Under the pieces are notes generated by a model. It searched no databases and was not told where the DNA came from. It worked only from the letters and a program-made list of their open reading frames with translations. A stretch of DNA of 1,088 nucleotides. It comes from Escherichia coli (GTDB lineage Bacteria > Pseudomonadota > Gammaproteobacteria > Enterobacterales > Enterobacteriaceae). Location of the stretch: NCBI RefSeq assembly GCF_003334335.1, contig NZ_QOWQ01000122.1. One strand, given 5' to 3'. A program made the position numbers and the translations under genes. Positions 1 through 1,088 of the stretch are shown in pieces (position 1 is the first letter of the stretch; each line of letters opens with the position of its first letter).

Positions 1-228
1 GTCACCACCGCCGACATTCTGACGCCACGACGCCGGGAGGATTACGGTAAGGACCTGTGGAGTGCTTATCAGACCATTCAGGAGAATATGCTGAAAGGCG
101 GAATTTCAGGTCGCAGCGCTAAAGGAAAACGTATCCATACCCGTGCCATTCACAGCATTGACACTGACATTAAGCTCAACCGCGCATTGTGGGTGATGGC
201 GGAAACCCTGCTGGAGAGCCTGCGCTGA
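1..228 (+). CDS. 3' end of an upstream CDS (75 codons, TGA stop at 226-228); conserved island protein, possibly DUF932/YfjQ-like
   Basis: Frame 1 is the only frame open across 1-225; frame 2 hits TGA at 20-22 and frame 3 hits TAA at 48-50. Translation ends ...GISGRSAKGKRIHTRAIHSIDTDIKLNRALWVMAETLLESLR*. It is co-directional with and sits 54 bp upstream of the antirestriction gene, where DUF932-type genes are often found in such islands. Product assignment is from memory of that synteny and is tentative; the 5' end lies outside the window. Confidence 0.55.
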   Translation, partial: VTTADILTPRRREDYGKDLWSAYQTIQENMLKGGISGRSAKGKRIHTRAIHSIDTDIKLNRALWVMAETLLESLR

Positions 229-270: not shown

Positions 271-275
271 AGGAG
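271..275 (+). promoter_or_regulatory. Shine-Dalgarno (AGGAG) for the antirestriction gene
   Basis: AGGAG at 271-275, 7 nt upstream of ATG at 283-285. Confidence 0.6.
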
Positions 276-282
276 TCATTTC

Positions 283-768
283 ATGAAAACCATTTCACAT
301 AATTCCACCACATCTTCTGTTTCCGTAACCGCTGCATCAGGGAATGACCAGCCTCAGTTGGTTGCCACCCTCGTCCCTGATGAACAGCGCATCAGCTTCT
401 GGCCGCAGCATTTTGGCCTCATTCCACAGTGGGTGGCCCTGGAGCCCCGTGTTTTCGGCTGGATGGACCGTCTGTGCGAAGACTACTGCGGTGGTATCTG
501 GAATCTGTACACCCTGAACAACGGCGGGGCATTTATGGCCCCCGAACCGGATGACGATGATGACGAAACATGGGTACTGTTCAATGCCATGAACGGCAAC
601 CGCGCTGAAATGAGCCCGGAAGCCGCTGGCATTGCTGCCTGTCTGATGACGTACAGTCATCACGCCTGTCGTACGGAGTGTTATGCCATGACGGTCCATT
701 ATTACCGGCTGCGGGATTACGCCCTGCAGCATCCGGAATGCAGCGCCATTATGCGCATCATCGACTGA
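283..768 (+). CDS. klcA: Antirestriction protein, KlcA/ArdB family (YfjX/YafX-like), 161 aa, complete
   Basis: Complete ORF from ATG 283 to TGA 766-768 with a canonical SD. The translation (MKTISHNSTT...FWPQHFGLIPQWVALEPRVFGWMDRLCEDYCGGIWNLYTLNNGGAFMAPEPDDDDDETWVLF...) matches my memory of KlcA/ArdB-type antirestriction proteins from E. coli cryptic prophages and IncP plasmids. Which paralog (yfjX, yafX or other) cannot be decided from sequence alone; 'klcA' is used as the family name. Confidence 0.9.
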   Translation: MKTISHNSTTSSVSVTAASGNDQPQLVATLVPDEQRISFWPQHFGLIPQWVALEPRVFGWMDRLCEDYCGGIWNLYTLNNGGAFMAPEPDDDDDETWVLFNAMNGNRAEMSPEAAGIAACLMTYSHHACRTECYAMTVHYYRLRDYALQHPECSAIMRIID

Positions 769-770
769 AT

Positions 771-775
771 GGAGG
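771..775 (+). promoter_or_regulatory. Shine-Dalgarno (GGAGG) for the RadC-like gene
   Basis: GGAGG at 771-775, 8 nt upstream of ATG at 784-786; it lies directly after the klcA stop, suggesting translational coupling or close co-expression. Confidence 0.6.
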
Positions 776-783
776 CAGGGACA

Positions 784-1088
784 ATGCAGCAGCTTTCCTT
801 TCTGCCCGGAGAAATGACGCCCGGCGAGCGCAGTCTCATTCTGCGGGCTCTGAAAACCCTGGACCGCCATCTTCATGAACCCGGTGTGGCCTTCACCTCC
901 ACCCGTGCGGCACGGGAATGGCTGATTCTGAACATGGCGGGACTGGAGCGTGAAGAGTTCCGGGTGCTGTATCTGAATAACCAGAATCAGCTGATTGCCG
1001 GTGAAACCCTCTTCACCGGCACCATCAACCGCACGGAAGTCCATCCCCGGGAAGTGATTAAACGCGCCCTGTACCACAATGCCGCTGC
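784..1088 (+). CDS. RadC-like JAB-domain protein (YeeS/YfjY/YkfG family, UPF0758), 5' portion; continues past the window end
   Basis: ATG 784 with a good SD; frame 1 stays open to the window end. The translation MQQLSFLPGEMTPGERSLILRALKTLDRHLHEPGVAFTSTRAAREWLILNMAGLEREEFRVLYLNNQNQLIAGETLFTGTINRTEVHPREVIKRALYHNAA... matches the conserved RadC C-terminal-domain pattern (E-F-x-V-L-x-L-[DN], LF-x-GT, V-x-PREV-x-K-x-AL-x-x-NA). The metal-binding JAB motif would lie just beyond position 1088. Paralog identity is undetermined, so no gene symbol is given. Confidence 0.88.
   Translation, partial: MQQLSFLPGEMTPGERSLILRALKTLDRHLHEPGVAFTSTRAAREWLILNMAGLEREEFRVLYLNNQNQLIAGETLFTGTINRTEVHPREVIKRALYHNAA

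What the first reader, a model, noticed from the sequence alone, without database searches (positions are those of the whole stretch)
784..1088. Short RadC-like protein lacking the N-terminal helix-hairpin-helix region of canonical RadC
The recognisable RadC C-terminal-domain conservation begins at about residue 55 of this ORF (REEFRVLYLNNQNQ...). Only about 50 residues precede it, so the roughly 100-aa N-terminal HhH-containing region of chromosomal RadC/YicR cannot be present. Such stand-alone JAB-type RadC-like proteins are recurrently linked to antirestriction genes on mobile elements, and their biochemical role (putative nuclease or peptidase acting during element entry) remains poorly defined.
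Basis: partly seen in the sequence, partly recalled or inferred. Interest (0 to 1): 0.35.

Follow-up and report, generated by a model that had tools for sequence, protein, structure and literature searches.

The report
Known short RadC-like JAB gene (YeeS)
The window ends with the first 101 codons of the E. coli island gene yeeS, a long-annotated, very common short RadC-family metalloenzyme that sits after an antirestriction gene, so the finding is correct but ordinary.

Summary
An ORF starts at ATG 784 behind a GGAGG ribosome-binding site and runs off the window after 101 codons. These 305 bases are 100% identical to a copy in E. coli Nissle 1917, where the ORF is intact (158 aa). That copy carries the complete JAMM motif: E57, then H107-x-H109-x7-S117-x-x-D120. 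Pfam RadC (PF04002) covers residues 38-157. The N-terminal UPF0758_N/HhH domain of chromosomal RadC (YicR) is absent, and one short helix (residues 13-30) takes its place.

The protein is 99% identical to K-12 YeeS, 82% to YkfG, 73% to YfjY/LfgB and 41% to YicR. The module DUF932 - antirestriction - JAB - DUF987 - CbeA/CbtA occurs in 4,824 of 5,426 complete E. coli genomes, with a median of 3 copies. Paralogues show dN/dS of about 0.1. Short RadC-like proteins are also common on conjugative plasmids, ICEs and prophages.

The best mechanistic guess is a Zn-dependent JAMM hydrolase that cleaves a protein target, as reported (with weak biochemistry) for LfgB. The nuclease hypothesis remains open. 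The tight antirestriction linkage holds for the enterobacterial module but not for more distant relatives. Verdict: already known, low interest.

The parts
1..228 (+). 3' end (75 codons plus stop) of a DUF932-family gene, the first gene of the module
   Evidence: Translation. The identical Nissle locus is annotated as a DUF932 domain-containing protein. The full-length protein matches PHROG 12094 at E 5e-128.
271..275 (+). AGGAG ribosome-binding site, 7 nt before ATG 283
   Evidence: Read directly from the sequence.
283..768 (+). Antirestriction protein gene (ArdB/KlcA-type, 161 aa), orthologous in position to K-12 yafX and yfjX/lfgA
   Evidence: ORF listed. Pfam Antirestrict PF03230 covers residues 66-161 at E 3e-37. 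PHROG 10132 'anti-restriction protein' at E 3e-63. Annotated as such.
771..775 (+). GGAGG ribosome-binding site, 8 nt before ATG 784
   Evidence: Read directly from the sequence.
784..1088 (+). First 101 codons (plus 2 nt) of the 158-aa stand-alone RadC-like JAB/MPN+ gene (yeeS orthologue). The ORF continues for about 172 nt beyond the window.
820..873 (+). Codons 13-30: an N-terminal alpha-helix specific to the short forms, standing where canonical RadC has UPF0758_N/HhH
   Evidence: The AF2 model places a helix at 13-30. The helix is conserved among short homologues, with consensus I..AL.IL..RL and A22 nearly invariant. It has no Pfam match.
895..1088 (+). Start of the RadC-like JAB domain (residues 38-101 of 38-157)
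   Evidence: Pfam PF04002 covers 38-157. Foldseek best match is RadC structure 2qlc, E 4e-13, TM 0.86.
952..954 (+). Codon of Glu57, the JAMM general-base glutamate at the N-terminus of strand beta-1. It is the only catalytic residue inside the window.
   Evidence: Nearly invariant (90% or more) in the 48-sequence alignment. Beta-1 spans residues 58-64 in the model.

Best explanation
Identity (shown). This is the 5' two-thirds of an intact yeeS-type gene. It encodes a 158-aa stand-alone RadC-family JAB/MPN+ metalloenzyme. It belongs to the conserved accessory module DUF932 - ArdB/KlcA antirestriction - JAB - DUF987 - CbeA/CbtA of P4-integrase-type E. coli islands ('cryptic prophages' CP4-44, CP4-6 and CP4-57).

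Anatomy (shown). One N-terminal helix is followed by a JAB domain with the full Zn site: E57, H107, H109, S117 and D120. The HhH/UPF0758_N DNA-associated domain of chromosomal RadC is absent. The gene is under purifying selection. No terminator-like site lies between the terminator-like hairpin upstream of the DUF932 gene and the one after the DUF957 gene, so it is probably co-transcribed with its neighbours.

Mechanism (inferred). The Zn2+-activated water, with Glu57 as general base, hydrolyses an amide (peptide or isopeptide) bond in a protein target. This alters a regulator or antitoxin when the module is expressed, either on entry of the element into a new host or under stress. The precedent is the 73%-identical paralogue LfgB/YfjY, reported to degrade antitoxin MqsA. 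The substrate of the YeeS-type copy is unknown.
For: Identity and intactness.
- The 305 window bases are 100% identical to the Nissle copy, which is intact at 158 aa.
- Identity is 99% to YeeS, 82% to YkfG, 73% to YfjY/LfgB and 41% to YicR.
- 158-aa clusters hold thousands of member sequences.
- The module is present in 4,824 of 5,426 E. coli genomes, median 3 copies.

Domain and motif.
- Pfam RadC at E 9e-45.
- TIGR00608 scores 149 bits against a cut-off of 133.85.
- H107, H109, S117 and D120 are invariant and E57 nearly invariant in 48 diverse short homologues.
- 80 of 81 diverged cluster representatives keep HxHx7SxxD.

Fold.
- The AF2 model has mean pLDDT 89.5.
- The best match is RadC 2qlc. 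The next tier consists of JAMM isopeptidases (BubCD, PfJAMM1, Rpn11 homologue, Sst2) and cytidine/DNA deaminases; no classical nuclease fold appears.

Selection and operon.
- dN/dS is 0.09-0.12 between paralogues, and 0.09 for the N-terminal region against YkfG.
- No terminator-like site lies between L001 11360 and 15818.
- In CP4-57 the yfjXY-ypjJ-yfjZF genes are described as one operon (PMC10846083).

Protease precedent. LfgB degrades MqsA and alpha-casein in vitro, and deleting lfgB sensitises cells to H2O2, a phenotype that was complemented.
Against: The protease evidence for LfgB is weak. It rests on an overnight incubation of poorly soluble protein. The authors 'cannot strictly rule out' contaminating proteases, and no active-site mutant is described in the passages read.

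That result concerns a 73%-identical paralogue, not this protein.

Iyer et al. argue from domain fusions (HhH, ArdC-N, primase, DinG helicase in the place of an exonuclease) that RadC-type JAB domains act on nucleic acids. They also argue that these domains lack the ubiquitin-tail groove (PMC3239186 and PMC5512222).

Co-expressing the five-gene modules did not change CbtA-type toxicity (PMC5371832).

The downstream part of the ORF in the actual source of the window was not seen.
Confidence: 0.55

Rival explanations
1. The stand-alone RadC-JAB is a nuclease or nucleic-acid/nucleotide-processing enzyme. It would act on the incoming (single-stranded) element DNA or on host DNA during establishment, alongside the antirestriction protein.
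For: Contextual arguments of Iyer et al.:
- RadC-JAB is fused to HhH, ArdC-N, DnaG primase and DinG helicases.
- In the DinG fusions it occupies the position of a 3'-5' exonuclease.
- The JAB fold belongs to the deaminase-like fold, whose members act on nucleotides.

Foldseek also returns cytidine and DNA deaminases at marginal E-values. Overproduced YfjY was reported to give a mutator phenotype (cited in PMC10846083). The gene sits in establishment-type contexts: next to an antirestriction gene here, and near ssb and antirestriction genes on pOXA-48-like plasmids.
Against: This short form lacks exactly the DNA-associated N-terminal domain. No nuclease activity of any RadC protein turned up in the papers found. 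The structural neighbours with the same metal site are isopeptidases (PMC11981726). The only reported biochemistry in this clade is proteolysis.
Confidence: 0.25
2. It is an anti-defence deconjugase. On entry of the element it would strip ubiquitin-like or cGAS-type protein conjugates made by host immune systems (Bil/Bub-type, CBASS Cap2) or cleave a host defence protein.
For: It has a JAMM isopeptidase-type active site. The best non-RadC structural neighbour is the JAB subunit of the bacterial ubiquitination-like BubCD complex, although only at E 1e-2. It is adjacent to an anti-restriction gene. It is widespread on conjugative plasmids: 1,649 of 2,337 plasmid records with a match are typed conjugative.
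Against: No PADLOC family matches it. No Ubl, E1 or E2 genes are annotated nearby. Iyer et al. argue that RadC-type JABs lack the groove for a ubiquitin tail. There is no experimental support.
Confidence: 0.08
3. It is a decaying remnant: a 5'-truncated radC or a cryptic-prophage pseudogene with no function.
For: It lies in elements called 'cryptic prophages'. Many truncated or fused gene calls exist in databases. The K-12 yeeS copy has lost its upstream antirestriction gene and is annotated from an internal Met.
Against: dN/dS is about 0.1, including the N-terminal region. Catalytic residues are invariant. The short architecture with its own conserved N-terminal helix is shared by many diverged relatives: 37 of 81 representatives have fewer than 60 residues before the JAB domain, and 80 of 81 keep the motif. 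Deleting the paralogue lfgB gives a phenotype that was complemented.
Confidence: 0.03

Closest known systems
E. coli K-12 YeeS (b2002, CP4-44), 'RadC-like JAB domain-containing protein'
   Same: 99% identical over the 148 residues annotated in K-12. The downstream genes are the same: yeeT (DUF987), cbeA and cbtA.
   Different: K-12 yeeS is annotated from Met11 because yeeR replaces the antirestriction gene and overlaps the start. The window has the ancestral arrangement, with the antirestriction gene and the full 158-aa ORF.
E. coli K-12 YfjY = LfgB (b2644, CP4-57, 'prophage protease') and YkfG (b0247, CP4-6)
   Same: 73% and 82% identical respectively, with the same length class (160 and 158 aa). 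Both show the same synteny: antirestriction - JAB - DUF987 - type IV TA. The catalytic motif is identical.
   Different: The N-terminal 20 residues of YfjY have diverged. MqsA binding at the promoter and MqsA degradation were shown only for the CP4-57 copy. Nothing has been tested for the YeeS-type copy.
Chromosomal RadC/YicR (UPF0758; NCBIfam NF000642, TIGR00608)
   Same: The JAB domains are homologous (41% identity overall). The E...HxH...S...D motif and the invariant D-H pair near the C-terminus are the same.
   Different: YicR is 222 aa and has UPF0758_N/HhH at residues 9-77. It matches the whole NF000642 profile at 289.6 bits. The short protein matches only positions 88-211 and scores 160.3, below the 180-bit equivalog cut-off. 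YicR lies in the core genome next to rpmB-rpmG and dfp, not in an island.
Short RadC homologues of conjugative elements (pOXA-48 IncL/M 149-aa JAB protein; ICEclc Orf58432, 164 aa)
   Same: They are stand-alone JAB proteins of about 150-165 aa on mobile elements. The pOXA-48-type copy is about 60% identical over residues 38-158. It lies in a region that also carries DUF4942, antirestriction and ssb genes.
   Different: The immediate neighbours differ: DUF3085 and an HTH protein on pOXA-48 (DUF3085-RadC pairing is noted in PMC12826799), and T4SS genes on ICEclc. Deleting the ICEclc gene had no effect on transfer.
JAMM/MPN+ isopeptidases (Rpn11, CSN5, AMSH/Sst2, PfJAMM1, BubCD JAB)
   Same: They share the fold and the Zn-site motif EXnHxHx7SxxD (PMC300881, listed).
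   Different: Similarity is only at fold level: 12-17% identity and Foldseek E of about 1e-2. No ubiquitin-like partner gene is present. RadC-type JABs are said to lack the Ub-tail groove.

Membership tests
Pfam RadC-like JAB domain (PF04002) | Significant full-length match to the family HMM | tested here: met
   Residues 38-157 match model positions 2-121 of 121 at E 9e-45. The window fragment alone matches the NCBIfam RadC models at E 7e-18.
Pfam RadC-like JAB domain (PF04002) | JAMM metal-site motif E...HxHx7SxxD | tested here: met
   E57, H107, H109, S117 and D120 are present in the copy that is 100% identical over the window. They are invariant or nearly so in 48 homologues. Only E57 lies inside the window.
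Pfam RadC-like JAB domain (PF04002) | Fold of the solved RadC C-terminal domain (PDB 2qlc) | tested here: met
   The AF2 model (pLDDT 89.5) matches 2qlc with Foldseek E 4e-13 and target-normalised TM 0.86. phmmer against 2qlc gives E 6e-26.
Canonical RadC/YicR (UPF0758; NCBIfam NF000642 equivalog) | N-terminal UPF0758_N / helix-hairpin-helix domain | tested here: not met
   The 158-aa protein has no PF20582 or HhH hit. YicR has PF20582 at residues 9-77. Profile positions 1-87 have no counterpart.
Canonical RadC/YicR (UPF0758; NCBIfam NF000642 equivalog) | Score above the curated equivalog cut-off (180 bits) | tested here: not met
   The score is 160.3 bits, against 289.6 for YicR. The broader subfamily model TIGR00608 is passed: 149 bits against a cut-off of 133.85.
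Canonical RadC/YicR (UPF0758; NCBIfam NF000642 equivalog) | Core-genome location (next to rpmB-rpmG / dfp in E. coli) | tested here: not met
   The gene lies in an island between Ag43/DUF932/antirestriction genes and the CbeA/CbtA genes. yicR lies next to rpmB and dfp.
YeeS/YkfG/YfjY(LfgB) group of CP4-type E. coli islands | High full-length identity to the K-12 members | tested here: met
   99%, 82% and 73% identity respectively.
YeeS/YkfG/YfjY(LfgB) group of CP4-type E. coli islands | Synteny: antirestriction - JAB - DUF987 - CbeA/CbtA-type TA | tested here: met
   Seen in the Nissle locus, in K-12 CP4-6 and CP4-57, and in the 7 IMG/VR loci at 80% identity or above. Only the antirestriction - JAB junction is visible in the window itself.
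YeeS/YkfG/YfjY(LfgB) group of CP4-type E. coli islands | Protease activity (as reported for LfgB) | not testable with these tools
   The only evidence is literature on the paralogue (PMC10846083).
JAMM/MPN+ ubiquitin-like isopeptidases | Association with a ubiquitin-like protein or E1/E2-like genes | tested here: not met
   None is annotated within 12 kb on either side. There is no PADLOC hit.
JAMM/MPN+ ubiquitin-like isopeptidases | Ub-tail binding groove / Ins-1 segment | not tested
   Only fold-level similarity was found, at E of about 1e-2. Iyer et al. state that the groove is absent from RadC-type JABs.

The most novel reading that the evidence does not exclude
The short RadC-JAB is the catalytic 'switch' of the island's establishment module. 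In this reading it is a Zn peptidase expressed on entry or under stress. It would cleave a specific small regulator or antitoxin (host MqsA-like, or the co-encoded DUF987 or CbeA) or a host defence protein. That would couple antirestriction, the type IV toxin-antitoxin pair and host stress responses. The short N-terminal helix, which replaces the HhH domain, would act as the substrate- or partner-docking element.
Probability: 0.15. Interest if true: 0.5.

Novelty: already known. Interest (0 to 1): 0.12.

Why it matters
For genome annotation it matters little. The gene is already annotated ('JAB domain-containing protein' / YeeS) in thousands of E. coli genomes, and the short architecture has been discussed since at least 2011.

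The wider question does remain open. It is not known what RadC-type JAB enzymes do, or why mobile elements so often carry a version stripped of the HhH domain. The only biochemistry found for this clade is preliminary (LfgB), and a knockout on ICEclc showed no transfer phenotype. This window adds no new handle on that question beyond what any E. coli genome already offers.

Tried and rejected
- PADLOC scan of the JAB, antirestriction and DUF932 proteins gave no hits. There is therefore no link to catalogued defence systems.
- The look-up of encoding contigs on three diverged representatives returned short contigs. The only mobile-element hints were one integrase and one HigB/HTH pair, which say nothing about synteny.
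- An IMG/VR scan returned 80 loci, whose ORFs I searched with phmmer using the Nissle module proteins.
  - The whole module is recovered only in close relatives.
  - Among the 73 loci at 56% identity or below, 1 has a PF03230-like ORF and 3 have DUF932.
  - I therefore rejected the idea that antirestriction linkage is a general property of short RadC proteins.
  - Caveats: the search was single-sequence, ArdA and ArdC types were not searched, and the collection is biased towards phages.
- 'Truncated chromosomal radC' was rejected. The short form is a large family with its own conserved N-terminal helix and is under purifying selection.
- 'Pseudogene' was rejected for the same reasons.
- A literature hit for 'YeeS' in a FEMS review was a false match to the author name Yeesin.
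- Attaiech et al. 2008 ('RadC, a misleading name?') is not held. It is cited only through other papers.
- The promoter scan found no convincing sigma-70 site inside the module. This is uninformative by itself.

Full report
**What is in the window.**
The 1,088-base window carries three co-directional coding regions on the + strand.
- Positions 1-228 are the last 75 codons of a gene.
- Positions 283-768 are a complete 161-aa ORF, preceded by AGGAG (271-275).
- An ORF starts at ATG 784, 8 nt after GGAGG (771-775), and runs off the window after 101 codons.

The flagged feature is this third ORF: MQQLSFLPGEMTPGERSLILRALKTLDRHLHEPGVAFTSTRAAREWLILNMAGLEREEFRVLYLNNQNQLIAGETLFTGTINRTEVHPREVIKRALYHNAA...

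**Is the similarity real?**
The 101-aa fragment alone matches the two NCBIfam RadC models at E 7e-18 and 2e-17. It aligns to profile positions 88-155 of 212 and 95-161 of 218. So the similarity is far beyond chance, and about the first 90 profile positions have no counterpart.

**Getting the rest of the ORF.**
- Megablast against 5,426 complete E. coli genomes finds the window in 4,824 of them. The median is 3 places per genome, and almost all places are chromosomal.
- The best hits are 99.8% identical. The only two differences are at positions 370 and 372, inside the middle ORF.
- The flagged region 784-1088 is 100% identical to E. coli Nissle 1917.
- In Nissle the ORF is intact, 158 aa, and annotated 'JAB domain-containing protein'.
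- Its C-terminal part reads ...[58 protein letters not shown]. This contains the JAMM motif H107-x-H109-x7-S117-x-x-D120, with the general-base Glu57 upstream.

The true downstream sequence of the window's own source was not available.

**Domain architecture.**

| Test | 158-aa protein | YicR (chromosomal RadC, 222 aa) |
|---|---|---|
| Pfam RadC PF04002 | residues 38-157 (model 2-121/121), E 9e-45 | residues 103-221 |
| Pfam UPF0758_N PF20582 | no hit | residues 9-77 |
| NCBIfam TIGR00608 (subfamily, cut-off 133.85) | 149 bits | 323.6 bits |
| NCBIfam NF000642 (full-length equivalog, cut-off 180) | 160.3 bits, positions 88-211 only | 289.6 bits, whole profile |

- The 158-aa protein also has a weak Prok-JAB hit.
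- The claim that the HhH-containing N-terminal region is absent is confirmed.
- One correction is needed: the domain begins at about residue 36-38, not 55. Residue 55 is only where single-sequence similarity to PDB 2qlc starts.

**Structure.**
An AlphaFold2 model was built on a 48-sequence alignment of short homologues. Its mean pLDDT is 89.5 and its pTM 0.81.
- It shows a helix at 13-30, a short linker, a helix at 40-51, and then the beta-alpha JAB core.
- Foldseek against the PDB gives RadC of Chlorobium tepidum (2qlc) as the only strong match, at E 4e-13 and target-normalised TM 0.86.
- A marginal tier follows at E of about 1e-2. It contains JAMM isopeptidases (BubCD, PfJAMM1, a Caldiarchaeum Rpn11 homologue, Sst2/AMSH) and cytidine/DNA deaminases.

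**Which known gene is it?**
Alignment with the K-12 proteins gives 99% identity to YeeS (CP4-44), 82% to YkfG (CP4-6), 73% to YfjY (CP4-57) and 41% to YicR.
- The neighbourhood in Nissle reads: DUF905 - DUF932 - antirestriction - JAB - DUF987 - hypothetical - CbeA - CbtA-family - DUF5983 - DUF957 - DUF4942. Ag43 lies upstream.
- The K-12 islands show the same order: yafZ...yafX-ykfG-ykfH-yafW-ykfI, and yfjX(lfgA)-yfjY(lfgB)-ypjJ-yfjZ-ypjF.
- The middle ORF of the window is a Pfam Antirestrict protein (PF03230, E 3e-37; PHROG 'anti-restriction protein').
- The first ORF is the end of the DUF932 gene.
- K-12 yeeS is annotated 10 codons shorter because yeeR has replaced the antirestriction gene there.

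**Is it functional?**
- Nei-Gojobori dN/dS between the three paralogue types is 0.09-0.12. For the first 40 alignment columns against YkfG it is 0.09.
- In the 48-sequence alignment of short homologues at 44-61% identity, G79, R89, A100, H107, H109, P110, S111, S117, D120, D140 and H141 are invariant, and E57 is nearly so.
- The exhaustive representative search finds 40,907 clusters (at 50% identity) with E of 1e-3 or better.
- Among 81 diverged representatives with a complete JAB domain, the residues preceding the domain are distributed as follows:
  - 37 have fewer than 60.
  - 17 have 85-130, the canonical length.
  - 7 have more than 130 and are fusions.
  - 80 of the 81 keep HxHx7SxxD.

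The short architecture is therefore a large, conserved class and not a truncation.

**Operon.**
The only terminator-like hairpins with strong stems around the module lie upstream of the DUF932 gene and after DUF957. This is consistent with co-transcription. For CP4-57 the yfjXY-ypjJ-yfjZF genes are described as one operon.

**Wider distribution and the antirestriction link.**
- tblastn finds relatives on 2,337 of 72,556 plasmid records, of which 1,649 are typed conjugative.
- On a pOXA-48-like IncL/M plasmid, a 149-aa JAB gene follows a DUF3085 gene. It lies in a region that also holds DUF4942, an antirestriction gene and ssb.
- The DUF3085-RadC pairing on broad-host-range plasmids has been noted in the literature (PMC12826799).
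- An IMG/VR scan gave 80 loci. All 7 loci at 80% identity or above keep antirestriction - JAB - DUF987 - CbeA.
- Two loci at 49-56% identity have JAB followed directly by CbeA-CbtA.
- Of all 73 loci at 56% identity or below (these two included), only 1 has a PF03230-like ORF and 3 have a DUF932 ORF within 6 kb. That search was single-sequence and is insensitive.

The tight antirestriction linkage is thus a property of the enterobacterial module rather than of short RadC proteins in general.

**What is known about function.**
- Iyer et al. (2011, 2017) proposed from domain fusions that RadC-type JAB domains process nucleic acids and lack the ubiquitin-tail groove.
- Fernandez-Garcia et al. 2024 renamed yfjY to lfgB.
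  - Findings: deleting it sensitises cells to H2O2, acid and heat, and this was complemented. MqsA binds the operon promoter. Purified LfgB degrades MqsA and alpha-casein.
  - Weaknesses: solubility was very low, incubation was overnight, and the authors admit they could not exclude contaminating proteases.
- RefSeq now names that K-12 gene 'CP4-57 prophage protease'.
- Co-expressing the five-gene modules did not change toxin toxicity.
- Deleting the 164-aa RadC homologue of ICEclc did not affect conjugation, and its authors call its role 'enigmatic'.

**Mechanism.**
Shown:
- an intact JAMM Zn site on a RadC-type JAB fold;
- no DNA-associated N-terminal domain;
- purifying selection;
- a position inside an accessory island module alongside an antirestriction gene and a type IV toxin-antitoxin pair.

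Inferred: Zn-activated hydrolysis of a peptide or isopeptide bond in a protein target. I put this at about 0.55, including the reading that it acts when the module is expressed on entry or under stress. Rivals are nucleic-acid processing (about 0.25), an anti-defence deconjugase (about 0.08) and a non-functional remnant (about 0.03).

**Verdict.**
However, the object is the already annotated, extremely common YeeS/YkfG/YfjY(LfgB) family. It is not a member of canonical full-length RadC/YicR, because the N-terminal domain, the equivalog score and the core-genome context were all tested and not met. It is a member of the RadC-like JAB family. Novelty: already known. Interest: low.

Noticed in passing
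window 766-786: A second in-frame ATG (769-771) directly abuts the TGA stop of the antirestriction ORF (TGAATG). Using it would add five residues (MEAGT) to the JAB protein. The GGAGG at 771-775, the PGAP annotation and the conserved MxQLS N-termini of the paralogues all favour ATG 784.
   Followed up: partly
window 337-1077, minus strand: A 246-aa GTG-started antisense ORF spans both the antirestriction and JAB genes. It is most likely a shadow ORF opposite well-conserved coding sequence. I did not test it for homologues.
   Followed up: no
window 370 and 372: These are the only two differences from the best E. coli matches: CTC here versus ATA there, giving Leu30 instead of Ile in the antirestriction protein. 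None of the 5,426 complete E. coli genomes gave a 100% match in the listed top hits, so the exact source strain or species is not identified.
   Followed up: no
window 283-480 and 550-567: The first ~65 residues of the antirestriction protein lie outside the Pfam Antirestrict model. They begin with a Ser/Thr-rich stretch. An acidic run DDDDDE (residues 90-95) lies at 550-567.
   Followed up: no
L002 6780-8755 (K-12 CP4-44): In K-12 the antirestriction gene is replaced by yeeR (inner membrane protein), which overlaps the start of yeeS. As a result K-12 YeeS is annotated from the internal Met11, at 148 aa.
   Followed up: partly
L018 527-2726; L019 1-2187 (IMG/VR contigs): In relatives at 49-56% identity the JAB gene is followed directly by CbeA-CbtA homologues, with no antirestriction or DUF987 gene (DUF932-JAB-CbeA-CbtA; JAB-CbeA-CbtA-DUF4942). 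In these two loci the JAB-toxin/antitoxin linkage is kept where the JAB-antirestriction linkage is not.
   Followed up: partly
L006 7433-16363 (pOXA-48-like IncL/M plasmid): DUF3085, a 149-aa JAB protein and an HTH protein are followed by DUF4942, Hha-like, antirestriction and ssb genes. Three families (JAB, DUF4942, antirestriction) are shared with the E. coli island module. This suggests that the island end resembles a plasmid leading or establishment region.
   Followed up: partly
L001 13563-14207 (Nissle): A 214-aa hypothetical gene (PHROG 5162, unknown function) sits between the DUF987 and cbeA genes. It is absent from the three K-12 modules. A homologue follows a JAB gene directly in the distant locus L070.
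   Followed up: no
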